Of a DNA stretch of 18,976 bases, positions 22 through 18,717 are shown piece after piece. The notes under the pieces are model-generated. The model was not told where the DNA came from. It did not search any database and worked only from the letters and a program-made list of their open reading frames with translations. How positions within the stretch are numbered: position 1 is the first letter of the stretch; each line of letters opens with the position of its first letter. This stretch comes from a virus. Lineage: Duplodnaviria > Heunggongvirae > Uroviricota > Caudoviricetes. Both the position numbers and the translations under genes were made by a program. The stretch is from positions 1 through 18,976 of IMG/VR virus record IMGVR_UViG_3300037189_028117; one strand, 5' to 3'.

Positions 22-261
22 ATGAAATTATTGCATTTTACTTTGTCTAGTTTTTTAGGAATACCGATTGAAGACATTATATCAAATAAAGACGGATACT
101 TAAAAGTTGAAAAGTTTTCTTCAAAAGAATCTGCTGAAAATTATCTTCAATTCATTTTAGATAATTATAAAAAACATCCATTGTGTCAAAAAGAAAGATT
201 CCGTATAATGGATTAAGAAGAATTAAATGAACTCATAATTATGAAAGAAATTATAGAATGA
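22..261 (+). pseudogene. Small hypothetical protein with in-frame TAA at 214-216; paralogue of 258-530
   Basis: ORF 22..216 stops at TAA, but the frame continues EELNELIIMKEIIE-TGA (259-261), which overlaps ATG 258 and aligns with the IIDEEELKELLLLSEVIS end of the next gene. The frame is open from base 1, so the true start may lie upstream of the window. Confidence 0.55.
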
Positions 262-530
262 AATATTATTTATTAAAAGAAAATATACAAGCAATTATTT
301 TTAAATCAACATATTATGAAAATGTATATCACTCAGTAAAATTATTTAAATTCAACAAAACAATTAATGATTCAAGATTAAAAGTTTTAGAATTTGAAAC
401 AATTGATTTGGCAAATCATTGCTTGTCTGATATTTTATTTCTTCATAGCGAAGAAATTAAAGATAATATTAAAATAATAGATGAAGAAGAATTGAAAGAA
501 TTACTTCTTTTAAGCGAAGTTATTTCTTAA
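258..530 (+). CDS. Hypothetical protein (small LKVxxF family), ends LSEVIS
   Basis: 90-aa ORF; shares the LKVxxFxxxxxAxxxLxxIL pattern with the upstream ORF. Confidence 0.75.
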   Translation: MKYYLLKENIQAIIFKSTYYENVYHSVKLFKFNKTINDSRLKVLEFETIDLANHCLSDILFLHSEEIKDNIKIIDEEELKELLLLSEVIS

Positions 531-544
531 ATAGAAAGATTAAA

Positions 545-760
545 ATGACAGAAAACATATATTATTACATGTTAGTAATAAAGCCTTATGCAAATAAATC
601 TTTATCTGCATATTTAGATAAAAACACTGGCAAAATTTTGTTGTTCAAAAACAAATTACAAGCGGAAAAGTTTCAAAGAAAATACGCTACATATGCTTAC
701 GATTGTATCTTATACAAAGAATATTTAGAATACAAAACATTAGAGGAGATTATAACATAA
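545..760 (+). CDS. Hypothetical protein, ends LEEIIT
   Basis: 71-aa ORF preceded by AGAAAG; TAATG overlap with the next gene. Confidence 0.7.
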   Translation: MTENIYYYMLVIKPYANKSLSAYLDKNTGKILLFKNKLQAEKFQRKYATYAYDCILYKEYLEYKTLEEIIT

Positions 761-1782
761 TGGCAAAATTCATTCAAAATTACAAAAATTTACATATTAT
801 GCCAGATGGGGCAAATGAAATACATGACACCCTTCCATTAGGTTCTTATGAGTTAAAATGGGATGACCGACAAAAGATTTTTTATCTTTACAAAGCAGAA
901 GAATCTAAAATACCCACAAAAATATATGGTAACCAAGAATCTATTGCAAAGAAAATTATAAAAACTTTTTTTCACAAGAATAGCAACTGCGGTGTTCTTC
1001 TAAGCGGAACAAAAGGTACTGGCAAAACAATGTTAGCAAAGCTTATTTCTAATTATTCAAAATTACCTACAATCATTATTAATGTTAACTTTTTAACTGA
1101 TGATCTTGCATCTAGCTTTTTAACATTCATTCAAGATTTAAATCAAAATTGCGTCATAATTTTTGATGAATTTGAAAAGAATTATGATAATGAATCTCAA
1201 GAAAGATTACTAACTTTGCTTGATGGTATAAGTAATTCCAATAAGTTATTTATATTCACTGTTAATAAAGAATATAAAGTATCTGAATTTCTATTAAATA
1301 GACCTGGAAGAATATTATTTCACATTAAGTATAATAAACTTGATGAAGCATCCACCATCCAATATGCCGAAGAAAGTTTAAATAATAAAGATTATTTAAA
1401 GGAAATAATTGAACTTAGAGATCTGATAGTAGATTTTAACTTCGATATGCTCAAGTCTCTTGTAGATTACTGCAATTTGCACGAAGAATCTCCTAAAGAA
1501 GCAATTAAAATATTAAATATTGGCGAGAATTCATCTCACTCATTTGTAGAGTATGAGGTTTTTAAAGATAATAATAAGTATACAGGCATTTGCGGCCCAC
1601 ACAATATTACTGGAGAAAATGGATTCTGGATAAATCATGAATTAAAAGACTCTAACTTTATAGAAGTATATGTTTCTGACAACACTATTTTTGAAACGAA
1701 GAATGGTTGGAGTTATGGAACATATAGCGGAATTAATTTTAAGTTTAGAAAAACAAAACAAACATTCAGAATGGATTTTTAA
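760..1782 (+). CDS. AAA+ ATPase (single domain)
   Basis: Walker A GTKGTGKT, Walker B IIFDE, LLDG, sensor-1 FIFTVN, arginine-finger region NRPGRI. Start moved from 703 to ATG 760 because of GAGGAG at 743-748 and the TAATG overlap. Confidence 0.9.
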   Translation: MAKFIQNYKNLHIMPDGANEIHDTLPLGSYELKWDDRQKIFYLYKAEESKIPTKIYGNQESIAKKIIKTFFHKNSNCGVLLSGTKGTGKTMLAKLISNYSKLPTIIINVNFLTDDLASSFLTFIQDLNQNCVIIFDEFEKNYDNESQERLLTLLDGISNSNKLFIFTVNKEYKVSEFLLNRPGRILFHIKYNKLDEASTIQYAEESLNNKDYLKEIIELRDLIVDFNFDMLKSLVDYCNLHEESPKEAIKILNIGENSSHSFVEYEVFKDNNKYTGICGPHNITGENGFWINHELKDSNFIEVYVSDNTIFETKNGWSYGTYSGINFKFRKTKQTFRMDF

Positions 1783-2537
1783 TGAAAATAGCTTTAGTTT
1801 CAGATGTTCATACGGAACATTACCCATCAGATATGGGAAGAAAAATTTTACAAAAAATATCAAAAACAAAAGCTGATGCTTTGGTTGTTGCCGGTGATTT
1901 ATCCACCATGCAATATATAAAATATGCTTTTAGTATTTTGTGTGATAATTTTGAAAATGTAATTTTTGTTTCTGGTAATCATGAATATTATAATTCCTCA
2001 ATTAAACAAACAAACGATATTTTGGAAGAATGTTCTGATAAACATAAAAATTTACACTGGCTAAATAATTCTTCCGTCAATATTAATGGAAAAACTTTTA
2101 TTGGAGGAACTCTTTGGTATCCAAAGCTAAAAGATGGCGAAGAACATTTCTTTAAAAGATTTAACAAATTCAATGGCAATATTGAATGGTTATGGTCAGA
2201 TTTCGAAGTTATTAAAAACTTTGAATATTGGTATTTCGAAGAACACAATAAATGTAAAGATTTTTTATTTAAAAACTTAAAAGACGGAGATATAGTTGTA
2301 TCTCACATGCTACCTACATTTAATTGTGTTCATGAAAGGTGGAAATCTTCTCTAACAAACTGTTTCTTTAACGCAAGGTGTGATGATATTTTAGAAAATA
2401 TAACTCCTTCTTACTGGTTATTTGGCCATACGCATCACAGGATGAATATAAAAGAAAATGGTTGCGTTTGCCTGTCAAACCCGGTAGGATACCCTAATGA
2501 AACCGGTGGTTATATAGAAACTATTATTGAGGTTTAG
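1782..2537 (+). CDS. Calcineurin-like metallophosphoesterase
   Basis: Motifs DVH, GD, GNHE, HM and GHTH in canonical order. Confidence 0.9.
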   Translation: MKIALVSDVHTEHYPSDMGRKILQKISKTKADALVVAGDLSTMQYIKYAFSILCDNFENVIFVSGNHEYYNSSIKQTNDILEECSDKHKNLHWLNNSSVNINGKTFIGGTLWYPKLKDGEEHFFKRFNKFNGNIEWLWSDFEVIKNFEYWYFEEHNKCKDFLFKNLKDGDIVVSHMLPTFNCVHERWKSSLTNCFFNARCDDILENITPSYWLFGHTHHRMNIKENGCVCLSNPVGYPNETGGYIETIIEV

Positions 2538-2541
2538 CTTT

Positions 2542-3052
2542 TTGAAACATACTGACAAACTAAAAGAACTTGAACTTCATCTTCAGGAGAAATATTCTGA
2601 GGATATTAGTTCTTTTTCTTTTGAATTATGGTCAGGAATATCAACTTATTATTTCTTATCAGAAGAGTTTATTGAAAAATATTCCAATCAAGTTGATTGG
2701 AGGAGGATTTGCGCAAATCAAAAATTATCTGAACAATTTATCGAAAAAATATTCAGATAAACTTAATTGGATTAGGATAAGTTTTTGTCAAGTTTTATCC
2801 GAAAGGTTTATATTAAAACATTCAGATAAAGTTAGTTGGGGAACCATTGGAATTAAACAAGAATTATCTGAAAAATTTATAGAAGAATACTCAGATAAAC
2901 TTAATTGAGAGTCTATTTCTAGATATCAAAAATTATCTAAAAAATTCATTGAAAAGCATAAAAATAAAATTAATATTCTTTGTTTAATTGATAACGAAAA
3001 CATCTCAGAAGAAACTAAACAAGAAATTAATTTATTGAAAGAAATCATATGA
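2542..3052 (+). pseudogene. Disrupted 23-aa tryptophan-repeat protein (5 repeats)
   Basis: TTG 2542 after GAGGT. One extra A in the A6 run at 2744-2749 shifts the frame (EK-YSDK). TGA at 2906-2908 sits at the conserved Trp position (KLN*ESISRYQ). The frame ends LLKEII-TGA overlapping ATG 3049. Confidence 0.85.
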
Positions 3053-3285
3053 TCAAAAAAGTTTTAAAAGAAAAATTTGAAAATGTCACAAAAATAAATG
3101 TTTTTCATATTCCGGAAATTGGAGATATTGTCTTTGATAAAGATGGAAATGAAGGTACTTGCACGGATGTTATCCATCTTTGGCATGGAAGCATTTTTCA
3201 AATATTTGATGGGGAAAAATACGGAACGTTAAATGAAGACCCCTTCAAATCAAAGGTTTTGATGGTCAAAAAAAATAATCAATAA
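3049..3285 (+). CDS. Hypothetical protein
   Basis: 78-aa ORF with an ATGA-coupled start. Confidence 0.7.
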   Translation: MIKKVLKEKFENVTKINVFHIPEIGDIVFDKDGNEGTCTDVIHLWHGSIFQIFDGEKYGTLNEDPFKSKVLMVKKNNQ

Positions 3286-3299
3286 AAAAGTATATTTAT

Positions 3300-3734
3300 G
3301 TGGATGAATTATTAGAATTATCTGATTTTTTCTTTAAAATTGCTTCAAGCCCCGAATATATGAAGCAATATATGGCAAACCGTTACCATAATGTAAGGAA
3401 TAAAATTATAAATGATCTTGGTGGGAAATGCAATAAATGCGGAATAACAAACGTACCGTTTGAAATTGATCATATAGATTCTTCAAAAAAAACATTCAGA
3501 GCAGCAGATGCTCATTCAGTTTCAGAAGAAAGATTAAATAAAGAATTACCAAATTTGCAACTTTTATGCAATCCTTGTCATAAAGAGAAAACAAAAGAAA
3601 GTTGGGATTATGGTACAAATAAACCTTCTCATGGAACATATTGGATGTATAGAAAATATAAGTGTCGGTGTAATGAATGCACTATAGCTTATAAAGAAAA
3701 GAAAAAAGAATGGAATTCTAAAGGTTTGGGTTGA
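3300..3734 (+). CDS. HNH endonuclease with C-terminal HGT-x3-Y-x4-CRCxxC motif
   Basis: LGGKCNKCG, EIDHID, NLQLLCNPCHKEKT, then HGTYWMYRKYKCRCNEC. Start is GTG 3300 or ATG 3360. Confidence 0.85.
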   Translation: MDELLELSDFFFKIASSPEYMKQYMANRYHNVRNKIINDLGGKCNKCGITNVPFEIDHIDSSKKTFRAADAHSVSEERLNKELPNLQLLCNPCHKEKTKESWDYGTNKPSHGTYWMYRKYKCRCNECTIAYKEKKKEWNSKGLG

Positions 3735-3799
3735 TTTTCCTAATTATATTAGGTTTATTGGCTTATTTCTTTTGGCCAAAACAATAAGAAAGAAAAAAT

Positions 3800-4702
3800 A
3801 TGAATTTAGGATATGCTTGCATTAATACCGAATTGCAATCTAAAGGCATTCAATGCTCTAGATGTATGATTAAAAGAACCTTTTTAGATAAAGGTATTAA
3901 TTATTGTGCCGAATTAGCTGAAAAAAATTGCGAAGATTTATTTGAAGTTGTAAAATGGAATAATAAAAACAATATAAAATTATTCAGAATTACATCCGAA
4001 TTATTTCCTTGGTGTTCTGAATATGATATAAATTCTTTACCAAATATTAATCAAATAAAATCAATATTAGAAATCGTTGGAAAAGAAGCAAATAAAGAAA
4101 ATCAAAGATTAACATTTCATCCTGGACCATTTAATGTTTTAGCTTCTCATAAAGAAGATGTGGTAAATAAGACAATTAAAGAACTGCAAGATCATGCTTT
4201 AATTATGGATTTCATTGGAATGCCGCAAAATCATTGGTCAAAGATAAATATTCATATTGGCGGAGCTTATGGGGAAAAAGAAGAAACCGCAAAGAATTTT
4301 GTTAAAAATTTTCAAAAACTAAACGAGTCTGCAAAAAAGAGACTAACTCTAGAAAACGATGATAAGAAAAATCTATATTCAGTTGATGAACTTTACAAGT
4401 ATATTTTCTCAGAATGCGGAATTCCTATTGTATATGATGCTCACCATCATGCGATAGGTTCTAACCCAAACAATCTTTCTCATGAAGAAGCTTTAAAGCT
4501 TGCCCATTCTACATGGGCAGATATTCGTCCAGTTTGCCATATGTCAAGCTCGGCTCAATTGGAGGGTAAGAAATGTCCAATACAAGCTCATTCAGATTAT
4601 ATTTTATCAAAATTTGACAATTGTGGTCTAGATTTGGATCTCATGTTGGAAGCAAAACAAAAAGAACAAGCTTTATTTGATTATTTAAAAAAATATGAAT
4701 AA
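3800..4702 (+). CDS. uvsE: UV DNA damage repair endonuclease
   Basis: LGYACIN, FRITSELFP, RLTFHPGPF, HIGG, RLTLENDD, DAHHH, HSDY and MLEAKQKE match UvsE/UVDE motifs. Confidence 0.93.
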   Translation: MNLGYACINTELQSKGIQCSRCMIKRTFLDKGINYCAELAEKNCEDLFEVVKWNNKNNIKLFRITSELFPWCSEYDINSLPNINQIKSILEIVGKEANKENQRLTFHPGPFNVLASHKEDVVNKTIKELQDHALIMDFIGMPQNHWSKINIHIGGAYGEKEETAKNFVKNFQKLNESAKKRLTLENDDKKNLYSVDELYKYIFSECGIPIVYDAHHHAIGSNPNNLSHEEALKLAHSTWADIRPVCHMSSSAQLEGKKCPIQAHSDYILSKFDNCGLDLDLMLEAKQKEQALFDYLKKYE

Positions 4703-5141
4703 ATTCAACTTAATATTTAATAGATATTCTGAAAAAGAATTGGAAGATAATGTTAATTTTTTTGATGAAAGTGATTGGTCAAGAATTTCTTGTCATCAAA
4801 AATTATCAGAACAATTCATAGAAAAACATTCAGATAAAATTCATTGGAATTCCATTTCTGCATACCAAAATTTATCTAAAGAATTTATTGAAAAATACTC
4901 TGATAAAATTTATTGGGAATTGATTTCTGAATGTCAAAATTTATCCGAAGATTTTATAGAAAAACACTCAGATAAAATTTATTGGGATTGTATCTCTTTA
5001 TCTCAAAAATTATCCGAAGAATTTATAAAAAAACATTTTAATAAAATTGATATTAATTATTTAATGAGAAATGAAAAGGTTTCTGATAAATTAAAAAACA
5101 AAATTAAAAAAGAAATTGATTTATTGAAAGAAATTATATGA
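4695..5141 (+). CDS. 23-aa tryptophan-repeat protein (4 repeats)
   Basis: Repeats of xxWxxISxxQxLSExFIEKxSDK; ends LLKEII. Confidence 0.9.
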   Translation: MNKFNLIFNRYSEKELEDNVNFFDESDWSRISCHQKLSEQFIEKHSDKIHWNSISAYQNLSKEFIEKYSDKIYWELISECQNLSEDFIEKHSDKIYWDCISLSQKLSEEFIKKHFNKIDINYLMRNEKVSDKLKNKIKKEIDLLKEII

Positions 5142-5509
5142 CGCATAATTTAAGTCTAAGTAATAAAAAATATTCAGAAGAAACTTTAGAAAAATATATT
5201 AATTCATTTACTAAATGGGATTGGTATTATATTTCTTACTGTCAGGTTTTATCTGAAAAGTTTATAGAAAAATATTCAGACAGGCTTGATTGGCGTGACA
5301 TTTCTTGGAGTCAAAAATTATCAGAAAAATTTATAGAAAAACATTCAAATAAAATTGATTGGAAAGAAATTTCTCAATATCAAAAGTTATCTGAAGAATT
5401 TATAAAAAAACATTTTGATAAAATTAATATTAAATTTTTAATGCTTAATGGTGAAATTTCTGAAAAAATTAAAAAAGAAATAAAAACTTTGAAAGAAATA
5501 ATACAATGA
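5138..5509 (+). CDS. 23-aa tryptophan-repeat protein (3 repeats)
   Basis: Same repeat; ends TLKEIIQ; close paralogue of 6928-7308. Confidence 0.9.
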   Translation: MTHNLSLSNKKYSEETLEKYINSFTKWDWYYISYCQVLSEKFIEKYSDRLDWRDISWSQKLSEKFIEKHSNKIDWKEISQYQKLSEEFIKKHFDKINIKFLMLNGEISEKIKKEIKTLKEIIQ

Positions 5510-5679
5510 ATTTAAAAGAACAAACAAAAATAAGAGAATATATAAGAAAAAATTTCAAAAACTTCTTAATTGAAGGGGAATTTGATTATGTGATAGCCGC
5601 TAAATCCGCAATCAAAGAACTTTCCCTTTCAAAAGAATTTGAAGATGATGTTTTAAACATATCCGCAGAAATTGAATAA
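5506..5679 (+). CDS. Small hypothetical protein (57 aa, MNLKEQTKIREY...SAEIE)
   Basis: Not in the ORF track. ATGA-coupled to the previous gene and fills the gap to 5682. Confidence 0.7.
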   Translation: MNLKEQTKIREYIRKNFKNFLIEGEFDYVIAAKSAIKELSLSKEFEDDVLNISAEIE

Positions 5680-5681
5680 CA

Positions 5682-6032
5682 ATGTGGTTCTATTTTAAAC
5701 CTAAAGAATACAACTCAGATAATCCAATCTTCTTAGAAGCAGATTCTATTGAAGAAGCTAAAACAATTTTAGAAGAAAAAGATATTCAAGATTTTCTTTA
5801 CTTGCAACCAGAAGAACATCTTGACATAATTTCCGCTTCAGCGTACGATAGAGGGTGCGAAACGGTTTGGTTCCTTGGGCAGTTTTCATATAAGGAAAAA
5901 CAAGGAATTTCCAACCCAAACGAATACATATCTTACCAAAATTGGATTAAAAAAGATTATGGTAAAATGATAATTCGAAAAGATTATAAGTTAATCAAAA
6001 AAGATCCAAAAGATGATGTGGGCCAAATGTAG
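5682..6032 (+). CDS. Hypothetical protein
   Basis: 116-aa ORF in the gene-dense run. Confidence 0.75.
   Translation: MWFYFKPKEYNSDNPIFLEADSIEEAKTILEEKDIQDFLYLQPEEHLDIISASAYDRGCETVWFLGQFSYKEKQGISNPNEYISYQNWIKKDYGKMIIRKDYKLIKKDPKDDVGQM
5821..5849 (+). promoter_or_regulatory. Putative sigma70-type promoter inside a CDS
   Basis: TTGACA (5821-5826), 17 nt, TACGAT (5844-5849). Confidence 0.55.
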
Positions 6033-6132
6033 GATATGTAATGATTGGTATTACATGGCTCAACCAGAAAAAGATGGAAAAATAACATGTTATACATGCA
6101 AAGAAAAAAGGAAAAATCTTGGGATTAAGTGA
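6013..6132 (+). CDS. Small zinc-ribbon-like protein (39 aa)
   Basis: MMWAKCRICNDWYYMAQPEKDGKITCYTCKEKRKNLGIK has two CxxC pairs; not in the ORF track. Confidence 0.65.
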   Translation: MMWAKCRICNDWYYMAQPEKDGKITCYTCKEKRKNLGIK

Positions 6133-6141
6133 AATATATGT

Positions 6142-6291
6142 ATGCCTCGTGAACAAATATTTCCGATATTATCTTTATTTCTATCTTTAGGAGCTTCCAT
6201 TTCATATTTTGCTCAATCAAATGTTGGGAAAGGATTATACTGGTTATTAGGAGCTGGTATAACAATTGTTGTAACATGGGTAATAAAATAA
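6142..6291 (+). CDS. Small two-TM membrane protein (49 aa)
   Basis: MPREQIFPILSLFLSLGASISYFAQSNVGKGLYWLLGAGITIVVTWVIK has two hydrophobic segments; not in the ORF track. Confidence 0.6.
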   Translation: MPREQIFPILSLFLSLGASISYFAQSNVGKGLYWLLGAGITIVVTWVIK

Positions 6292-6578
6292 TAATAAAAG
6301 TTTTCAATAAAGAGTTTGAGCTTATTGAGGATACATATACATATATTTTAGATCAAAGTTGTATTTACAATAGATCTATGTATAAAAATAAAGCTTACAC
6401 TAGGCACCATTTATCTATTGGTTCTATTGATTTGGTTACTAAATCAAATGAGAATTTGAATGAACTTTTAAATGAAGCTTCTAAAGTTTTTGAAAAGCTT
6501 ATTATAAATAAATATTTACTTATAAAAGATTTTATTCCAGAAGTTGAAAATTATATTACTTTAAAAGAAATTATATGA
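6276..6578 (+). CDS. Hypothetical protein, ends TLKEII
   Basis: 100-aa ORF with no Trp repeat but the same C-terminal/junction motif. Confidence 0.75.
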   Translation: MGNKIIIKVFNKEFELIEDTYTYILDQSCIYNRSMYKNKAYTRHHLSIGSIDLVTKSNENLNELLNEASKVFEKLIINKYLLIKDFIPEVENYITLKEII

Positions 6579-6931
6579 AAAAACATAATTTAGATTTTAT
6601 TATTAATAATAAATATTCTGAAAAAGAATTAGGGGATAATATTAATTTGTTTGATAGATTTGATTGGGGCTGGATATCAGCTTTTCAAGTATTGTCTGAA
6701 AGTTTTATTGAAAAACATATAGATAAAATTGCATTTTCAAACATTTCAGAGTGTCAAAAACTTTCAGAGCAGTTTATAGAAAAATATTCAGACAAACTTG
6801 ATTGGTGGTACATTTCTGAATTTCAGATTTTATCTGAAGAATTTATAAGAAAACATATAAATAAAATTAATATAAATTTTTTATTAGAAAACAAAAATGT
6901 TTCTTATGAAATTATGAAAGAAATTATATGA
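6575..6931 (+). CDS. 23-aa tryptophan-repeat protein (3 repeats, short tail)
   Basis: Same repeat; ends IMKEII. Confidence 0.9.
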   Translation: MKKHNLDFIINNKYSEKELGDNINLFDRFDWGWISAFQVLSESFIEKHIDKIAFSNISECQKLSEQFIEKYSDKLDWWYISEFQILSEEFIRKHINKININFLLENKNVSYEIMKEII

Positions 6932-7308
6932 AACATAATTTAAATTTAAGTAATAAAAAATATTCAGAAGAAACGTTAGAAAAATATATTAATTCATTTA
7001 ACTTTAATGATTGGTATTATATTTCTTTCTGTCAACTTTTATCTGAAGAGTTTATAGAAAAACATTCAGACAGACTTGATTGGCGTGACATTTCTTTATT
7101 TCAAAAATTATCCGAAGAATTTATAGAAAAACATTCGGATAAATTAAGTTGGATGTGGGTCTCTGAAAAACAAAAATTATCCGAAGAATTTATAAGAAAA
7201 CATATAGATAAAATTAATATTGAAGGGTTAATGGAAAACAAAAACATTTCTCAAAAATTTAAAAATAAAATTAAATTAGAAGTCTCTTTATTGAAAGAAA
7301 TTATATGA
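6928..7308 (+). CDS. 23-aa tryptophan-repeat protein (3 repeats)
   Basis: Same repeat; ends LLKEII. Confidence 0.9.
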   Translation: MKHNLNLSNKKYSEETLEKYINSFNFNDWYYISFCQLLSEEFIEKHSDRLDWRDISLFQKLSEEFIEKHSDKLSWMWVSEKQKLSEEFIRKHIDKINIEGLMENKNISQKFKNKIKLEVSLLKEII

Positions 7309-7754
7309 CACATAATTTAGATTTGATTAATAAAAAATATTCCCAAGAAGAATTAGAAGAAAGTGTTAATTTACTCAGTTGGGTTGATTGGTATCATATA
7401 TCTAGAAACCAAAAATTATCAGAATCATTCATAGAAAAATATTCAGATAAAGTTGATTGGCTTAGTATATCTTGCGATCAAAAATTATCTGAAGAATTTA
7501 TAGAGAAATATCAAGACAAACTTAGTTGGATTGATATTTCATTTTATCAAAATTTATCAGAAGAATTTATTGAAAAACATTCCGATAAAGTTTATTGGGA
7601 TCACATTTCTTTTCGCCAAAAACTTTTAGAAGAATTCATTAGAAAACATATAGATAAAATTGATATCAAACAATTAATGAAAAATAGAAAGCTTTCGAAA
7701 AATTTAAAAAACAAAATTAGAAAAGAAATTAAAGTTTTAATGGAGATTATATAA
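7305..7754 (+). CDS. 23-aa tryptophan-repeat protein (4 repeats)
   Basis: Same repeat; ends VLMEII-TAA. Confidence 0.9.
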   Translation: MTHNLDLINKKYSQEELEESVNLLSWVDWYHISRNQKLSESFIEKYSDKVDWLSISCDQKLSEEFIEKYQDKLSWIDISFYQNLSEEFIEKHSDKVYWDHISFRQKLLEEFIRKHIDKIDIKQLMKNRKLSKNLKNKIRKEIKVLMEII

Positions 7755-7762
7755 GGAGAATC

Positions 7763-8863
7763 ATGAGAAAATTAGTACATATTGAAAAAGTAAAATCATT
7801 AAAACCAATTGATGGTGCCGACTTCATTGAGTTGGCTCAGATTCTGGATTGGCAACTTATTGTAAAAAAGGGTGAATTTAAAGTTGGTGACCTTGCCGTC
7901 TATCATGAAATAGATTCTCTTTGTCCAGAAAAAGAATGTTATGAATTTTTAAGACAAAAAAAATTCAAAATAAAAACAATGAAAATGAAAGGGGAGTTAA
8001 GCCAAGGTTTAGCTTTACCACTTTCAATATTACCACCTGGCCATTATAAAGAAGGGCAAGATGTAACAGATATTCTTGGGGTATTGCATTGCGACTCAGA
8101 ATCTAGAGAGAATATGCTTTCTAGAAAAGCTCCTAGATCTAAATTTATGAAGTTTATGTTTAAATTTTCTTGGTTTAGAAAATTAAATAATTACTTTACA
8201 TTTAAAGATAAATCAGGTTGGCCAGAATTCGTACAACATACAGATGAAGAAAATATTCAAGCAATATTTTCAAAAGTTAAAAGAGATTTTGGTGATCAAA
8301 CTTTTTATGTTACAGAAAAAGTTGATTATCAATCAGCTACGTATTTTACTAGAAATGTTAAAAAATTTATTTTTGGCATTCCTGTTACAAAGAAAATATT
8401 TGGAGTATTATCTAGAAGCTTGTATAAAAAAACCGATGATGGTTCCTTATGGTGGAAAAATGCAAAGAAATTTAATATTGAACAAATTCTTAGATCTTAT
8501 GATGAAGAATTAACAATTCAAGGTGAGTCTGGAGATACAAATGTTCAAGGTAACAAGTATCAATTAAAAGAATCAAGCTTTTGGGTTTTTAATATTATTA
8601 ATAATAGAACTGGATATCATTATTCCATTGATGAAATGGAAGACTTCTGTAATAAACATGACTTAAAAATGGCACCAGTATTAGATAAGAATTTTAAACT
8701 ACCAGAGACTGTTGGAGAATTAATTGAATATAGTAGAGGAAAATCTGTTATTAACCACAAAACTGATAGGGAAGGTGTAGTTATACGTTTAATTAAAGAT
8801 GGGAAGAAACTTGTTTCTTTTAAAGTTAAAAACCCAGATTTTCTAATAAAGAATAAAGAATGA
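7763..8863 (+). CDS. RNA ligase, DRB0094-like family
   Basis: N-terminal PIDGADFIE...VKKGEFKVGDLAVYHEIDS module; nucleotidyltransferase motifs TEKVDY (I), QGE (III), REGVV (IV), FKVKN (V). SD AAGGAG upstream. Confidence 0.88.
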   Translation: MRKLVHIEKVKSLKPIDGADFIELAQILDWQLIVKKGEFKVGDLAVYHEIDSLCPEKECYEFLRQKKFKIKTMKMKGELSQGLALPLSILPPGHYKEGQDVTDILGVLHCDSESRENMLSRKAPRSKFMKFMFKFSWFRKLNNYFTFKDKSGWPEFVQHTDEENIQAIFSKVKRDFGDQTFYVTEKVDYQSATYFTRNVKKFIFGIPVTKKIFGVLSRSLYKKTDDGSLWWKNAKKFNIEQILRSYDEELTIQGESGDTNVQGNKYQLKESSFWVFNIINNRTGYHYSIDEMEDFCNKHDLKMAPVLDKNFKLPETVGELIEYSRGKSVINHKTDREGVVIRLIKDGKKLVSFKVKNPDFLIKNKE

Positions 8864-9345
8864 TATTTAATCAACCAAAACCAACAAACTTAACGAAACT
8901 AAAAATACAAGAAATAGCAGAGAAATACTTTTATTCTTCTGGTTTTGGCGAAGATATAATTAAATTTGTAAATAGTATTGGTGGTTATGTACACTTTTTA
9001 CCGATAGATTACAAAATAGAACATTCTTTAATTGTTAAAAGAAAAGATAAGTTTGACATTTTCATACATGATTGTTTAGGATTAGCTAGAACAAAACATA
9101 GCATAGCCCACGAATTAGGTCATTATGTTTTACACTCTAACTTTGGAGAACAACCAATTATTGCAGAACCTTATGGCAAATCTATAATTGAATCGGAAGC
9201 AAATTGGTTCGCTATGGCATTTTTAATGCCACAAAAGGAATTTAAAGAAGAATTACTTAGACGTAATCAGAATATTGATTTAATTTGTTCATTGCATAAT
9301 TTTAAAGAACAAATAGTTAAAGCTAGAGTTGATGAAATTATATGA
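8860..9345 (+). CDS. ImmA/IrrE-family Zn metallopeptidase
   Basis: SIAHELGHYVLH (HExxH) followed by ESEANWFAMAFLMP. Confidence 0.88.
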   Translation: MIFNQPKPTNLTKLKIQEIAEKYFYSSGFGEDIIKFVNSIGGYVHFLPIDYKIEHSLIVKRKDKFDIFIHDCLGLARTKHSIAHELGHYVLHSNFGEQPIIAEPYGKSIIESEANWFAMAFLMPQKEFKEELLRRNQNIDLICSLHNFKEQIVKARVDEII

Positions 9346-9608
9346 TTTACTTTGCATATCTTGAAAAACAAGGTTATAACATATTTTGTAAAAATAATAC
9401 ATTTGTAATGCCATATTTTTCTACAAGATGGATTTCAGAATCAGAAATTGAAAATTTTATATCAAATTATTGTTATTTTGATTTAAATGAAGAAGAATTT
9501 GAATTTTTTATGGAAAAATATATAAACCAAAGCCTTCGTAAAAAAATATATAAGGCAAAAGATATTAATGAATTCCTTAGTTTTATGAAATTGACGGAAA
9601 TAATATGA
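9342..9608 (+). CDS. Hypothetical protein, ends KLTEII
   Basis: 88-aa ORF, ATGA-coupled on both sides. Confidence 0.75.
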   Translation: MIYFAYLEKQGYNIFCKNNTFVMPYFSTRWISESEIENFISNYCYFDLNEEEFEFFMEKYINQSLRKKIYKAKDINEFLSFMKLTEII

Positions 9609-9868
9609 GAAAATTAAAAAGATTATTGTTTATATTAAAAAAAAGTATTTATAATACATCACATGAACCGGGGTTAATTGGGATGATTATAGCTATGTGT
9701 ACAAATTTATTTTTAATGCTTTATATAAATAAATTATTTATATATGACTTTATATATGCTTTATTATTTATGATACATTTGACCTATTTTGTTTTTCGTA
9801 TATTTATTCCTAATTGGAAAAAATGCGCTTATGAATATGATATTGGTTTATTGAATGAAATAATATGA
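9605..9868 (+). CDS. Small membrane protein, ends LLNEII
   Basis: 87 aa with two hydrophobic stretches; ATGA-coupled on both sides. Confidence 0.7.
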   Translation: MRKLKRLLFILKKSIYNTSHEPGLIGMIIAMCTNLFLMLYINKLFIYDFIYALLFMIHLTYFVFRIFIPNWKKCAYEYDIGLLNEII

Positions 9869-10248
9869 AAAAACATAATTTAGATTTAAAAAATAAAAAA
9901 TATTCTGAAAAAACCTTAGAAAAATATATTAATTTGTTTGATGAACATGATTGGGATTATATTTCTTCAAAACAAAAATTATCTGAGAAATTTATAGAAA
10001 AACACATAAATGAAATTTGCTGGGAATGTATATCTTCATATCAAGAATTATCCGAAGGTTTTATAGAAAAAAACATAGATAATGTAGATTGGTTTTATAT
10101 TTCTGGAGATCAAAAATTATCTGAAAAGTTTATAAGAAAACATATAGATGAAATTGATATTCATAATTTAATGTATAATAAAAATATTTCAGAAGAATTT
10201 AAAAATAAAATCAAAAAAGAAATCAACTTATTAAAAGAAATTATATGA
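9865..10248 (+). CDS. 23-aa tryptophan-repeat protein (3 repeats)
   Basis: Same repeat; ends LLKEII. Confidence 0.9.
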   Translation: MKKHNLDLKNKKYSEKTLEKYINLFDEHDWDYISSKQKLSEKFIEKHINEICWECISSYQELSEGFIEKNIDNVDWFYISGDQKLSEKFIRKHIDEIDIHNLMYNKNISEEFKNKIKKEINLLKEII

Positions 10249-10603
10249 AAAAACATAATTTAAATTTAACAGGTGAAAAATATTCCGAAGAAGAATTGGA
10301 ATATACCATTAATTTATTTGAAGTTAATGATTTTAATAAAATTTCAATGTATCAAAAGCTATCTGAACAATTTATAGAAAAATATTCAGATAAAGTTTAT
10401 TGGAATTATATTTCTACTTATCAAAATTTATCTGAAGAATTTATTGAAAAGTATTCTGATAAATTAATTTGGCTCTATATTTCTAAATATCAGGTTTTAT
10501 CTGAAAACTTTATAAGAAAACACATTGGTCAAATTGATATTAATTGGTTAATGTATAATAAAAATATTTCAGAAGAATTTAAAAATAAAATCAAAAAAGA
10601 AAT
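10168..10603 (+). repeat. 56-bp exact direct repeat (10168-10223 and 10548-10603)
   Basis: TTAATGTATAATAAAAATATTTCAGAAGAATTTAAAAATAAAATCAAAAAAGAAAT occurs at both sites, 380 bp apart, in the tails of two tandem paralogues. Confidence 0.9.
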
Positions 10604-10628
10604 TAGCTTATTAAAAGAAATAATATGA
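10245..10628 (+). CDS. 23-aa tryptophan-repeat protein (3 repeats)
   Basis: Same repeat; ends LLKEII. Confidence 0.9.
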   Translation: MKKHNLNLTGEKYSEEELEYTINLFEVNDFNKISMYQKLSEQFIEKYSDKVYWNYISTYQNLSEEFIEKYSDKLIWLYISKYQVLSENFIRKHIGQIDINWLMYNKNISEEFKNKIKKEISLLKEII

Positions 10629-17583: not shown

Positions 17584-18136
17584 CTTAAGTGAAATTAAAA
17601 AAAATATAGCATTTAAAAAAATAAATAAAAATATTAAAAATCAAATTCTAAATATAAACGAAGATACTGATTATTTATCTTCTGGAGTGGAAGGTGATGT
17701 ATATGATTTAGGTTTTAACAAGGTTATCAAGTTTTCAAATTTTAATAATGAAGTATTTTCTTCAGATATTAAGATAATACTTAAAACTTTAAAGTTTATA
17801 AAAGAAAACAAACAAAGAAATTTGCCAAAAGTTTATGATTTTGGTAAGATTGATAAAAATATATATTTTTATATTTGCGAAAAACTATTTCCAATCTCCA
17901 ATAAAGAACAACGTATAATTGGAAAGTTATATGAAATATACGAAGATCAAAATAAAATAAACTTAAAAACAAAAAATGAAAAAATAATTAATGATTACAT
18001 TAATATTTTCAAAAATAAAAACTTTCTGGTAAATGATCTTCATGAATCAAATATAATGAAAGATAAAAGAGGAAGTTATAAACTTTGCGATTTAGGTTGC
18101 GTAAGATTAAATCCATTACTTAAAAAAATAAAATGA
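17567..18136 (+). CDS. Minimal protein-kinase-like protein
   Basis: Gly loop LSSGVEGDVY, KVIK, catalytic loop DLHESN, DFG-equivalent DLG. Confidence 0.75.
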   Translation: MILIVDLSEIKKNIAFKKINKNIKNQILNINEDTDYLSSGVEGDVYDLGFNKVIKFSNFNNEVFSSDIKIILKTLKFIKENKQRNLPKVYDFGKIDKNIYFYICEKLFPISNKEQRIIGKLYEIYEDQNKINLKTKNEKIINDYINIFKNKNFLVNDLHESNIMKDKRGSYKLCDLGCVRLNPLLKKIK

Positions 18137-18147
18137 AAGGTCGTACT

Positions 18148-18717
18148 ATGAGTCAAAATTTCCCAATGCCATCCCCCAATAGAAACATTTACTTTTTTGA
18201 ACAAGTAAATCAGCAATCAGTTTTGAACGCAACAAAATCAATTCTAGAAATAAATGCTGCCGATGAATATCTTAAAGATTACTATAAAGTCTATGGTTTA
18301 GTTTACGAACCAAAACCAATTAAAGTTTATATTGACTCTTATGGAGGGATGGTTTATCAAATTCTTGGTTTAGTTTCTGTGGTTGAAAATAGTAAGGCAG
18401 AAATCCATACAATTTGCACTGGAACCGCAATGTCAGCAGGAGCAATATTCTTAATGTCTGGACATAAGCGTTTTGCTTACAAAAACTCAACCGTTATGAT
18501 TCATCAAGTTAGCTCAGGGACATTTGGTGCATTAAAAGAAATGGAAGATAATGTTCATGAAGCCAAAAGACTTAATGATAACCTTTGTAAAATAATTACT
18601 GAGAAAACTAAAATTAAACAACCAACACTAAATAAACTATATAAAGAAAAAACTGATTGGTACTTAAACAGCCAAGAAGCAAAGAAAAACGGAATAATTG
18701 ATGACATTATTGAATAA
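18148..18717 (+). CDS. clpP: ATP-dependent Clp protease proteolytic subunit
   Basis: YIDSYGG, AMSAG (catalytic Ser), MIHQ (His), TDWY (Asp), EAKKNGIIDDI. Start set at ATG 18148 after GAAAGG. Confidence 0.92.
   Translation: MSQNFPMPSPNRNIYFFEQVNQQSVLNATKSILEINAADEYLKDYYKVYGLVYEPKPIKVYIDSYGGMVYQILGLVSVVENSKAEIHTICTGTAMSAGAIFLMSGHKRFAYKNSTVMIHQVSSGTFGALKEMEDNVHEAKRLNDNLCKIITEKTKIKQPTLNKLYKEKTDWYLNSQEAKKNGIIDDIIE

What the first reader, a model, noticed from the sequence alone, without database searches (positions are those of the whole stretch)
241..10628. Shared C-terminal motif (LKEII-stop) on 15 related and unrelated genes, usually fused to the next start codon
Seen: gene ends read MKEIIE (241-261), LSEVIS (530), LEEIIT (760), LKEII (3052, 5141, 6578, 7308, 10248, 10628), LKEIIQ (5509), MKEII (6931), LMEII (7754), VDEII (9345), LTEII (9608) and LNEII (9868). 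Seven of these are not Trp-repeat genes, including a membrane protein and an ImmA/IrrE peptidase. The DNA consensus is TTRAAAGAAATWATATGA with the ATGA overlap. Variation is often synonymous (TTG/TTA, GAA/GAG, ATT/ATC/ATA). The peptide persists where there is no overlap (ATG GAG ATT ATA TAA at 7740-7754, followed by its own SD) and where an extra residue is added. No gene end after 10628 has it, apart from ClpP's family-typical DDIIE. Inference: this may be a C-terminal peptide address shared by a protein class (degron, packaging/ejection signal or docking tail). Alternatives are a translational-coupling element (GAAAG sits 7 nt before ATG in most copies) or a short recombination site joining exchangeable gene cassettes. 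I know of no named system that accounts for it.
Basis: partly seen in the sequence, partly recalled or inferred. Interest (0 to 1): 0.9.

Follow-up and report, generated by a model that had tools for sequence, protein, structure and literature searches.

The report
Dual-use gene boundary in phage arrays
In this AT-rich large phage about a quarter of all genes end in the same five amino acids (L-K-E-I-I), because those last codons are both the tip of a protein helix and the ribosome landing site plus start codon of the next gene. The repeated boundary is also a place where genes are gained and lost, so this is operon biology taken to an extreme rather than a demonstrated protein address.

Summary
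In the whole 115.6-kb contig, 43 of 169 plus-strand ORFs end in [ED][IV][IL]. Thirty belong to a 38-copy Trp-repeat family. Thirteen are unrelated, against 0.6 expected.

Best reading (about 0.6): a dual-use boundary.
- The tail closes the family's C-terminal helix.
- Its DNA (TTR AAA GAA ATW ATA TGA) resembles the genome's own ribosome-binding site (AGAAAG, 5-10 nt, ATATG) and carries the overlapped ATGA start.
- Synonymous choices favour SD-like G's only where a gene overlaps.
- Unrelated genes carry the tail almost only with an ATGA overlap (12/34 against 1/97) and beside family arrays (9/13).
- A 97%-identical relative lacks exactly two genes, with the crossover inside the 30-nt junction repeat.
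- ImmA homologues never end this way, and in ImmA the tail is a rewritten helix end, not an appended tag.

Not explained by the ribosome site alone: Leu at -5, Ile at -2, and a few tails without overlap in related contigs. A true peptide signal therefore stays possible (about 0.15-0.2).

This scan reached the same reading on another window of this genome (e1-1681425). It also noted similar shared tails in other genomes (e1-1849891, e1-1930708).

The parts
241..261 (+). 6-codon mini-ORF M-K-E-I-I-E with the boundary word TGAAAGAAATTATA, then GA and ATGA, overlapping the start of gene 258-530. It lies in frame behind the TAA of gene 22-216.
   Evidence: the motif is present without a full protein upstream
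513..530 (+). loose tail L-S-E-V-I-S, stop TAA, no overlap; the next gene (545) has its own AGAAAG site
740..762 (+). loose tail L-E-E-I-I-T with a TAATG stop/start overlap; the two Glu codons are GAG GAG, giving a GGAG Shine-Dalgarno for the AAA ATPase gene starting at 760
   Evidence: gene call
2527..3052 (+). broken Trp-repeat gene (frameshift near 2760, TGA at a Trp position) that still ends in an intact L-K-E-I-I / ATGA junction serving gene 3049-3285
4695..5509 (+). array of two Trp-repeat genes (4695-5141 ending L-K-E-I-I, 5138-5509 ending L-K-E-I-I-Q), each overlapping the next start by ATGA
6276..6578 (+). unrelated 100-aa ORFan ending I-T-L-K-E-I-I, with ATGA overlap onto a Trp-repeat gene
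6575..7754 (+). array of three Trp-repeat genes with tails M-K-E-I-I, L-K-E-I-I and L-M-E-I-I. The last ends in TAA and is followed by a separate GGAG site; it has lost the AAAGAA core (ATG GAG).
8860..9345 (+). ImmA/IrrE-type M78 peptidase gene ending R-V-D-E-I-I with ATGA overlap; the tail is the end of the last helix of the fold
   Evidence: Pfam PF06114 E 4.5e-16; 149 homologues never end this way; model helix 150-160, pLDDT about 92
9342..9608 (+). unrelated 88-aa ORFan ending K-L-T-E-I-I with ATGA overlap
9605..9868 (+). unrelated 87-aa hydrophobic (probable membrane) ORF ending L-L-N-E-I-I, with ATGA overlap onto a Trp-repeat gene
9865..10628 (+). array of two 127-aa Trp-repeat genes, both ending L-L-K-E-I-I with ATGA overlap
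   Evidence: model of 9865-10248: mean pLDDT 95, C-terminal helix 110-126

Best explanation
The L-K-E-I-I stop is a dual-use gene boundary of a large AT-rich phage.

1. As protein, it is the last turn of the C-terminal amphipathic (capping) helix of a greatly expanded Trp-repeat family, with 38 copies in this contig. This is shown by alignment and model.
2. As RNA, the same 15-18 nt (TTR AAA GAA ATW ATA TGA) form an SD-like purine tract, an A/U spacer, the preferred ATATG start context, and the ATGA stop/start overlap of the next gene. Ribosomes ending one gene can therefore restart on the next. This is inferred from sequence; it is not shown by experiment.
3. Tandem amplification has copied this boundary dozens of times. 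The copies act as direct repeats for homologous recombination that adds or removes whole genes. This is shown once between relatives.
4. Unrelated genes lying in or beside the arrays have taken on the boundary. In at least one case this was by recombination. In others, such as ImmA, the last 3-5 codons of an existing terminal helix were rewritten. This step is inferred.

On this reading the common peptide on unrelated proteins is mainly a by-product of a shared boundary, not a signal read by a receptor.
For: Family and structure:
- An HMM built from 25 seeds finds 38 members, 30 of them with the tail.
- In 25 aligned members E119 and I127 are invariant, and I120, L123 and I126 are nearly invariant.
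- The model has mean pLDDT 95, with helix 110-126 ending in the tail.

Ribosome-site reading:
- Intergenic starts of this genome use AGAAAG(G) 5-10 nt before ATG, with ATATG as the preferred context; T at -1 is 53%. The tail reads GAAAG plus 7 nt plus ATG.
- Leu -5 is TTG in 11 of 19 overlapped family tails, against 14% TTG in family bodies (p = 1.3e-5).
- Lys -4 is AAG (giving AAGGA) in 5 of 9 non-family tails, against 20% (p = 0.018).
- The AAAGAA core is intact in 18/20 overlapped family tails against 4/10 non-overlapped ones (p = 0.007).
- The word TTGAAAGAAAT also stands before an ATGA in another frame, reading I-E-R-N-V-K, at contig 48268-48288.
- The junction is kept behind a 6-codon mini-ORF (241-261) and behind two broken family genes.
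- The last Ile is as frequent as in virtual translations of intergenic sites (14/34 against 20/57, p = 0.66), so the start context explains it.

Link to overlap and to arrays:
- Non-family tails occur in 12/34 genes with ATGA against 1/97 without (p = 1.9e-7).
- 9/13 lie directly beside a family gene, against 25/118 other genes (p = 7e-4).

Recombination:
- Contig L094 (97.4% identical over 3,024 nt) lacks contig positions 81476-82076, which is two whole genes. The switch lies inside the 30-nt junction shared by both ends.
- The unrelated gene 81472-81765 is flanked by a 33-nt junction repeat with one mismatch.

The tail is not native to the unrelated genes:
- None of 149 ImmA representatives ends this way.
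- In ImmA the tail is the end of helix 150-160 of a 161-aa protein that is no longer than its homologues.

The tail is lineage-specific:
- The LKEII-type family ends seen among the fetched loci lie on the close contigs L002-L004; family members on the 80 more distant metagenome loci end otherwise.

General precedent:
- Intragenic SD motifs before ATGA overlaps promote termination-reinitiation (PMC6728339).
- NNA codons before UGA are enriched because of overlapped AUG starts (PMC7246954).
Against: - The ribosome site alone does not give this peptide. Of 55 intergenic sites read in the ATGA frame, none reads as a tail.
- Ile at -2 (18/34 against 9/57, p = 3e-4), Glu/Asp at -3 and Leu at -5 exceed the intergenic pattern.
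- About half of the copies have only AAAAG, a weak SD.
- In contigs from the same samples and in a more distant relative (L101, RNA ligase 67% identical), unrelated ORFans carry K-D-I-I or I-K-D-I-I-E tails without any overlap and with differing synonymous codons. Pooled, that is roughly 8 against 1.8 expected.
- Only one junction-bounded indel and one repeat-flanked unrelated gene were found. For the other 12 non-family tails, DNA similarity to family ends does not clearly exceed controls beyond about 18 nt.
- Paralogues are not independent, so the p-values on family tails are optimistic.
- No expression or translation data were examined.
Confidence: 0.6

Rival explanations
1. The tail is a true peptide signal. 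This would be a C-terminal tag or docking helix shared by some 45 mostly small, probably early proteins. It could be read by a protease or unfoldase (the phage has two ClpP-like genes), by a packaging or ejection system, or by a common partner. Its use as a ribosome site would be secondary.
For: - Leu -5 and Ile -2 are enriched beyond the ribosome-site pattern.
- Leu is kept through TTR and CTN codons, and Ile/Asp through synonymous codons, in related contigs.
- Tails exist without overlap: contig 53326; L004, L086 and L088; and two I-K-D-I-I-E ends in L101. That is roughly 8 against 1.8 expected.
- The bodies of about 30 tail-bearing ORFans show no detectable homology to each other.
- Hydrophobic C-termini are generally depleted in bacteria and lower protein levels through degradation (PMC7246954), so a widespread Ile-Ile end is unusual.
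Against: - In this genome, non-overlapped unrelated genes show no enrichment (1/97 against 0.4 expected).
- The tail is helical and confidently modelled in both proteins folded, not a free end.
- One-residue extensions (I-I-Q, I-I-E, I-I-T, I-I-A) are common. That argues against recognition of the free carboxyl end.
- The DNA word persists in a mini-ORF, behind broken genes and in another frame.
- Tails cluster next to family arrays.
- No receptor candidate was tested.
Confidence: 0.17
2. This is pure convergent selection for one optimal termination-reinitiation element. Each unrelated gene would have evolved the word GAAATWATATGA by point mutation because it couples best in this host. Neither shared descent by recombination nor any peptide role would be involved.
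For: - Strong tie to the ATGA overlap.
- SD-favouring synonymous choices.
- ImmA looks like a rewritten helix end rather than a transplanted segment.
- For most non-family tails, similarity to family ends stops at about 18 nt.
Against: - 22 of 34 overlapped non-family genes use other ends with other embedded SD-like words, so no single word is required.
- Tails cluster beside family arrays rather than across all overlaps.
- One unrelated gene carries a 33-nt family-derived end.
- This does not explain Leu -5 or the non-overlapped tails.
Confidence: 0.15
3. This is a dedicated cassette system. The junction would be a site for a site-specific recombinase that moves gene cassettes, as attC sites do in integrons.
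For: One indel bounded by junctions. Unrelated genes lie between identical junctions.
Against: - The crossover lies in 30 nt of plain identity, as expected for homologous recombination.
- The junction RNA/DNA has no significant structure (z from -1.0 to +1.3).
- There are no inverted repeats, terminators or excess promoters in the arrays.
- A second breakpoint between relatives lies inside a family gene, not at a junction.
- No recombinase was linked to the arrays.
Confidence: 0.03
4. This is chance or composition: an AT-rich genome rich in Ile, Lys, Glu and Leu gives such ends by accident.
For: Two unrelated 26%-GC phage contigs each show a single N-L-K-E-I-I / ATGA end.
Against: 13 observed against 0.58 expected in non-family genes (p = 4.5e-14). 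The DNA word occurs 26 times on the + strand and 0 times on the - strand.
Confidence: 0.01

Closest known systems
Translational coupling by termination-reinitiation at ATGA overlaps with an intragenic Shine-Dalgarno motif (Huber et al. 2019, PMC6728339)
   Same: There is a 4-nt ATGA stop/start overlap and an SD-like purine tract inside the 3' end of the upstream gene at normal spacing. The arrays are co-directional and have no internal terminators.
   Different: One and the same 15-18-nt boundary, and therefore one peptide, is reused on about a quarter of the genes, including unrelated ones. The SD is weak (GAAAG or AAAAG). Coupling itself was not measured.
Tryptophan repeat gene family of entomopoxviruses and jumbo phages (e.g. 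Bacillus phage vB_BpuM-BpSp gp045, phage G gp538)
   Same: The same roughly 23-residue W-x-x-I-S-x-x-Q-x-L-S-E-x-F-I-E-K repeat. DNA-level hits fall on genes annotated with that name.
   Different: The L-K-E-I-I end and the M-K-K-H-N-L start are confined to this phage lineage. BpSp gp045 and the family members on 80 metagenome loci end differently.
PeSL mobile regulatory cassettes of T4-type phages (Arbiol et al. 2010, PMC2839356)
   Same: Short conserved intergenic or boundary repeats in regions of small non-essential genes serve as substrates for recombination that inserts, deletes and swaps ORFans.
   Different: PeSLs are a promoter plus a stem-loop terminator between genes. Here the repeat is coding, unstructured and translational (ribosome site plus start), with no promoter or terminator signal.
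C-terminal degradation or targeting tags (ssrA-type LAA ends, encapsulin cargo-loading peptides)
   Same: A short, hydrophobic-ending C-terminal peptide is shared by unrelated proteins.
   Different: Those tags are exposed and are read at the free end or as a flexible peptide. Here the tail is part of a confident helix, tolerates an added residue, and on unrelated genes tracks the overlap with the next gene. The comparison rests on recalled knowledge and was not tested.

Membership tests
Tryptophan repeat gene family | tandem ~23-residue repeats with conserved Trp and the L-S-E-x-F-I-E-K core | tested here: met
   Repeats are visible in translations. The HMM finds 38 members. blastn hits fall on genes annotated as this family in phages BpSp and G.
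Tryptophan repeat gene family | the L-K-E-I-I end is a general feature of the family | tested here: not met
   Family members on the 80 more distant metagenome loci and BpSp gp045 end otherwise. The LKEII-type ends lie in this phage lineage.
Termination-reinitiation coupled gene pair | stop and start codons overlap (ATGA or TAATG) on one strand | tested here: met
   32 of the 43 tails end in ATGA with an ORF starting at that ATG. 760 and contig 53033 use TAATG.
Termination-reinitiation coupled gene pair | SD-like motif inside the upstream gene at working distance | tested here: inconclusive
   25 of 30 tail junctions have at least 5 nt matching the extended SD, against 18% of random 19-mers, and TTG and AAG are enriched. 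About half have only AAAAG, and the 16S rRNA of the unknown host was not available.
Termination-reinitiation coupled gene pair | downstream translation depends on translation of the upstream gene | not testable with these tools
   Needs reporter constructs or ribosome profiling.
PeSL-type regulatory cassette | strong promoter followed by a stem-loop terminator | tested here: not met
   Junction folds are no better than shuffles (z from -1.0 to +1.3). There are 0 terminator-like sites, and promoter-like sites fall below shuffle expectation (33 against 49.8).
PeSL-type regulatory cassette | gene gain/loss breakpoints between close relatives fall in the repeat | tested here: met
   One case: L094 against contig 81476-82076, with the switch inside the 30-nt shared junction. 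A second breakpoint lies inside a family gene.
C-terminal peptide tag (degron or address) | tail is exposed or flexible and added beyond the folded domain | tested here: not met
   The tail is the end of helix 110-126 (family, pLDDT 83-93) and of helix 150-160 (ImmA, pLDDT about 92). ImmA is no longer than its homologues. These are predicted models only.
C-terminal peptide tag (degron or address) | presence is independent of what lies downstream in the DNA | tested here: inconclusive
   In this contig it is not independent (12/34 against 1/97). In related contigs several tails lack an overlap.
C-terminal peptide tag (degron or address) | a receptor binds the tag and changes the fate of the protein | not testable with these tools
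   No partner is known and no complex prediction was run.

The most novel reading that the evidence does not exclude
The L-x-[DE]-I-I end is a real C-terminal signal shared by several dozen otherwise unrelated early proteins of a huge-phage lineage. For example, it could be a timed-destruction tag read by the phage's own ClpP-type protease with a host unfoldase, or a common docking helix. The ribosome site would then have been written into it secondarily. The leftovers are consistent with this: Leu -5 and Ile -2 beyond ribosome-site needs, non-overlapped tails in relatives, and the general disfavour of hydrophobic C-termini.
Probability: 0.15. Interest if true: 0.8.

Novelty: new variant of a known kind. 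Interest (0 to 1): 0.42.

Why it matters
- It shows how far overlapping codes can shape proteins. One translational boundary, multiplied by tandem amplification, fixes the last five residues of about a quarter of a phage's proteins. It even rewrites the end of a conserved enzyme fold (ImmA).
- It offers a translational counterpart to promoter-terminator cassettes (PeSLs) as a substrate for shuffling ORFans in phage genomes.
- For annotation, it warns that a shared C-terminal motif on unrelated phage proteins need not be a sorting or degradation signal.
- If the minority reading is right, it would be a new phage-wide protein tag.

Tried and rejected
- Alternative code (TGA = Trp), which would fuse the arrays into polyproteins. 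Rejected because the conserved Trp positions are TGG and the ORFs are open under table 11; the one TGA at a Trp position sits in a gene that also has a frameshift. No formal codon test was run.
- Frameshift fusion at the junction. The A-AAA-AAC run lies behind the stop, and nothing slippery lies at ATT-ATA-TGA. This was judged by eye only.
- Close relatives among deposited phages: none. Only Trp-repeat hits at about 70% in Bacillus, Listeria and Clostridium phages, and helicase hits below 33%.
- An RNA-ligase scan of IMG/VR gave one unrelated 43%-GC phage.
- A junction-word scan of IMG/VR gave two unrelated AT-rich contigs with a single chance copy each.
- The metagenome scan with the family profile returned only distant members without the tail.
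- The word-based search for ImmA found only itself.
- Contigs L002-L004, L086 and L088 share no non-family genes with this contig. They come from the same two samples as the window's own copy, L089 (99.995% identical). They may therefore be other parts of the same or a sister genome, not independent relatives.
- Homology among tail-bearing ORFans: none by blastp or phmmer. Pfam and PHROGs were empty except for ImmA and a tRNA nucleotidyltransferase-like protein. Atlas look-ups were uninformative.
- DNA similarity of non-family 3' ends to family ends beyond 18 nt: at or above the control 95th percentile (0.63) for 4 of 13, and not convincing for the rest.
- No complex prediction was run, because no binding claim is made.
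- Sequencing-run tools were not used.

Full report
**What the window is**

The window is the first 18,976 nt of a 115,645-nt single contig with 27.9% G+C. My simple ORF caller places 169 of 182 ORFs on the + strand. Genes overlap by ATGA or sit a few bases apart. Identifiable functions are phage-like: an AAA ATPase, metallophosphoesterases, UvdE, RNA and DNA ligases, an ImmA/IrrE peptidase, a UvrD-type helicase and ClpP. A JGI metagenome contig, L089, is 99.995% identical to the window. No deposited phage is close. Earlier notes of this scan call it a huge phage.

**Checking the observation**

Every listed gene end is present at its coordinates. Four details need correcting.
- 241-261 is a six-codon mini-ORF. 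It lies in frame behind the TAA of gene 22-216 and overlaps the start at 258.
- 3052 closes a Trp-repeat gene that is broken by a frameshift and by a TGA at a Trp position.
- Only 6 of the 15 copies have GAAAG seven bases before the ATG.
- The motif does not stop at 10628. Contig-wide, GAAAT[AT]ATATGA occurs 26 times on the + strand and never on the - strand, and 43 of 169 + strand ORFs end in [ED][IV][IL].

An HMM built from 25 clear Trp-repeat genes finds 38 family members, 30 of them with the tail. Thirteen further ORFs with the tail are not members. They also show no similarity to each other by blastp.

In non-family proteins the tripeptide pattern occurs at 0.44% of internal positions. 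That gives 0.58 expected C-termini against 13 observed (p = 4.5e-14). For L-x-[ED]-I-I the count is 8 against 0.03 expected.

**The tail in the family**

- Twenty-five aligned members, from this genome and from metagenomes, share M-K-K-H-N-L at the start and K-I-K-K-E-I-x-L-L-K-E-I-I at the end. E119 and I127 are invariant. I120, L123 and I126 are nearly invariant.
- The AlphaFold model (mean pLDDT 95) is a stack of short helices closed by one long helix, residues 110-126, that ends in the tail.
- The conserved hydrophobic residues fall on one face of that helix. This is my reading of the spacing, not a measured burial.
- In the family the tail is therefore part of the fold.
- The repeat itself belongs to the named but functionally unknown tryptophan repeat gene family. 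However, the members on 80 more distant metagenome loci and BpSp gp045 end differently. The tail is a trait of this phage lineage only.

**The same letters as a ribosome site**

- Genes with free upstream DNA in this contig are preceded by AGAAAG or AGAAAGG, 5-10 nt before the ATG. They prefer ATATG as the start context.
- The tail DNA reads TTG-AAA-GAA-ATT-ATA-TGA, which is GAAAG, seven bases, ATG. This is the same layout.
- Three tests indicate selection on the nucleotides:
  - Leu -5 is TTG in 11 of 19 overlapped family tails, although TTG is only 14% of TTR codons in family bodies (p = 1.3e-5).
  - Lys -4 is AAG (making AAGGA) in 5 of 9 non-family tails, against 20% usage (p = 0.018).
  - The AAAGAA core is intact in 18 of 20 overlapped family tails but in only 4 of 10 that end in TAA or TAG (p = 0.007).
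- At 760 the two Glu codons are the rare GAG, producing GGAG before a TAATG overlap.
- The word TTGAAAGAAAT also stands before an ATGA in a different reading frame at contig 48268-48288, where it reads I-E-R-N-V-K.
- The junction is intact behind the mini-ORF at 241-261 and behind two broken family genes.
- Overlapped genes that lack the tail carry other embedded SD-like words in other frames.
- The junction RNA is unstructured. The arrays contain no terminator-like sites and no excess of promoter-like sites, as expected for polycistronic, translationally coupled arrays.
- Intragenic SD motifs at ATGA overlaps, and their role in termination-reinitiation, are established (PMC6728339). The NNA-UGA bias caused by overlapped starts is also established (PMC7246954).

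**The tail on unrelated genes**

- These genes are mostly short: 69 to 161 residues for twelve of them, and 248 for the thirteenth, against a median of 187 for other genes.
- Two have known folds: ImmA/IrrE (PF06114) and a tRNA nucleotidyltransferase-like protein. One is probably a membrane protein. The rest are ORFans.
- Twelve of 34 non-family genes that end in ATGA have the tail, against 1 of 97 that do not (p = 1.9e-7). Each such ATGA opens a downstream ORF.
- Nine of the 13 lie directly beside a family gene, and 12 lie within three genes of one (p = 7e-4 and 0.003).
- The tail is not native to these proteins. None of 149 representatives of ImmA homologues ends this way; they typically end R-[IV]-x-x-L-G-L.
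- In the ImmA model (pLDDT 95) the tail is the end of the last helix, 150-160, of a protein no longer than its relatives. The end of an existing helix has been rewritten. Nothing has been appended.

**Recombination at the boundary**

- Contigs from another sample are 96-97% identical to parts of this genome.
- L094 matches contig 78457-81480 at 97.4% and then continues at 82040 onwards at 93%. It lacks 81476-82076, which is exactly two genes: one unrelated ORFan with a family tail and one family member.
- The switch from left to right partner lies within the 30 nt that are identical at both junctions.
- The ORFan 81472-81765 is flanked by a 33-nt junction repeat with one mismatch, so its tail is family DNA.
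- A second pair of related contigs (L092 and L004) differs by a 600-nt indel flanked by a 59-nt repeat that spans a different stop/start junction.
- L091 switches partner inside a family gene.
- Any long enough paralogue identity therefore recombines, and the junction is one such stretch. This resembles the role of PeSL cassettes in T4-type phages (PMC2839356), but without their promoter and hairpin.

**What the boundary model does not explain**

- I read 57 intergenic ribosome-site regions in the frame an ATGA overlap would impose. Only two gave a tail, and both are the relics of broken family genes.
- The last Ile is explained by the ATATG context (14/34 against 20/57). Ile at -2 is not (18/34 against 9/57, p = 3e-4). 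Neither is Glu/Asp at -3 or Leu at -5.
- For most non-family tails, DNA similarity to family ends stops after about 18 nt.
- In contigs from the same samples (L004, L086, L088; possibly other parts of the same genome), further unrelated ORFans end in K-D-I-I, L-K-E-I-I or D-I-I-E, some without any overlap.
- In a more distant relative with no Trp-repeat gene in 21 kb (L101), two such ends (I-K-D-I-I-E) lack an overlap and use different synonymous codons.
- A rough pooling gives 8 non-overlapped tails against 1.8 expected.
- Another relative (L102) has its own paralogue family ending K-I-I-I / ATGA.
- These leftovers fit three possibilities: decaying former junctions, a common need for an amphipathic terminal helix, or a real peptide function.
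- Hydrophobic C-termini are generally depleted and destabilising in bacteria (PMC7246954), which keeps the last possibility alive.
- Against the peptide function stand the helical, confidently modelled state of the tail, the frequent extra residue behind it, and its tie to the overlap in this genome.

**Verdict**

The tail is best read as a dual-use boundary: helix end plus ribosome site plus start. It has been amplified with the Trp-repeat arrays, reused as a recombination joint, and imposed on neighbouring unrelated genes (confidence about 0.6). A peptide signal is the main rival (about 0.17). A purely convergent coupling element (0.15), a dedicated cassette system (0.03) and chance (0.01) follow.

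An earlier agent of this scan reached the same main reading on another window of this genome (e1-1681425). The tests here are my own. They add the synonymous-site tests, the virtual-translation null, the ImmA comparison and the junction-bounded indel.

Noticed in passing
window 2527-3052: A Trp-repeat gene is broken by a frameshift near 2760 and by a TGA at a conserved Trp position. Its junction with gene 3049 is intact.
   Followed up: partly
window 22-261: Behind the TAA of gene 22-216 the same frame continues for 14 codons (E-E-L-N-E-L-I-I-M-K-E-I-I-E) to the ATGA at 258-261. This suggests a nonsense mutation cut off an older tail-bearing end.
   Followed up: partly
contig 22019-22328, 35571-35760, 52355-52560 (outside the window): Several family copies are interrupted at poly-A runs, and the reading continues in another frame. 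They could be pseudogenes, homopolymer assembly errors or slippage sites.
   Followed up: no
window 18133-18717 and contig 38304-38924: There are two ClpP-like genes, 36% identical over 139 residues. Two AAA ATPase paralogues lie at window 760-1782 and contig 57176-58477.
   Followed up: no
L102:13570-15728: A more distant relative (RNA ligase 61% identical) has a different paralogue family whose members end K-I-I-I or K-I-I-V with an ATGA overlap. This is the same kind of boundary with another peptide.
   Followed up: partly
L101:772-1104 and L101:9429-9797: Two ORFans with no detectable similarity both end I-K-D-I-I-E and TAA, without an overlapped start, and use different synonymous codons. 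This is the best single hint of selection on the peptide.
   Followed up: partly
L092:1020-1620 against L004:10609-10667: A 600-nt indel between 91-96% identical contigs is flanked by a 59-nt repeat covering a different stop/start junction and the first 14 codons of the next gene.
   Followed up: partly
L086:10954-11325 and L004:15768-16031: Two non-overlapped tails (K-D-I-I and Q-D-I-I, stop TAA) are both followed at once by GGTTGACAT, a -35-like TTGACA. This may mark array ends with a promoter.
   Followed up: no
many tail-bearing ORFans (e.g. contig 29974, 36402, 81472; L086:12063, 12350, 12637): Most begin M-[KFY]-[YI]-[IF]-[VIL]-[VIL]. This could be a shared N-terminal strand or merely the A/T-rich codons favoured after the start.
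   Followed up: no
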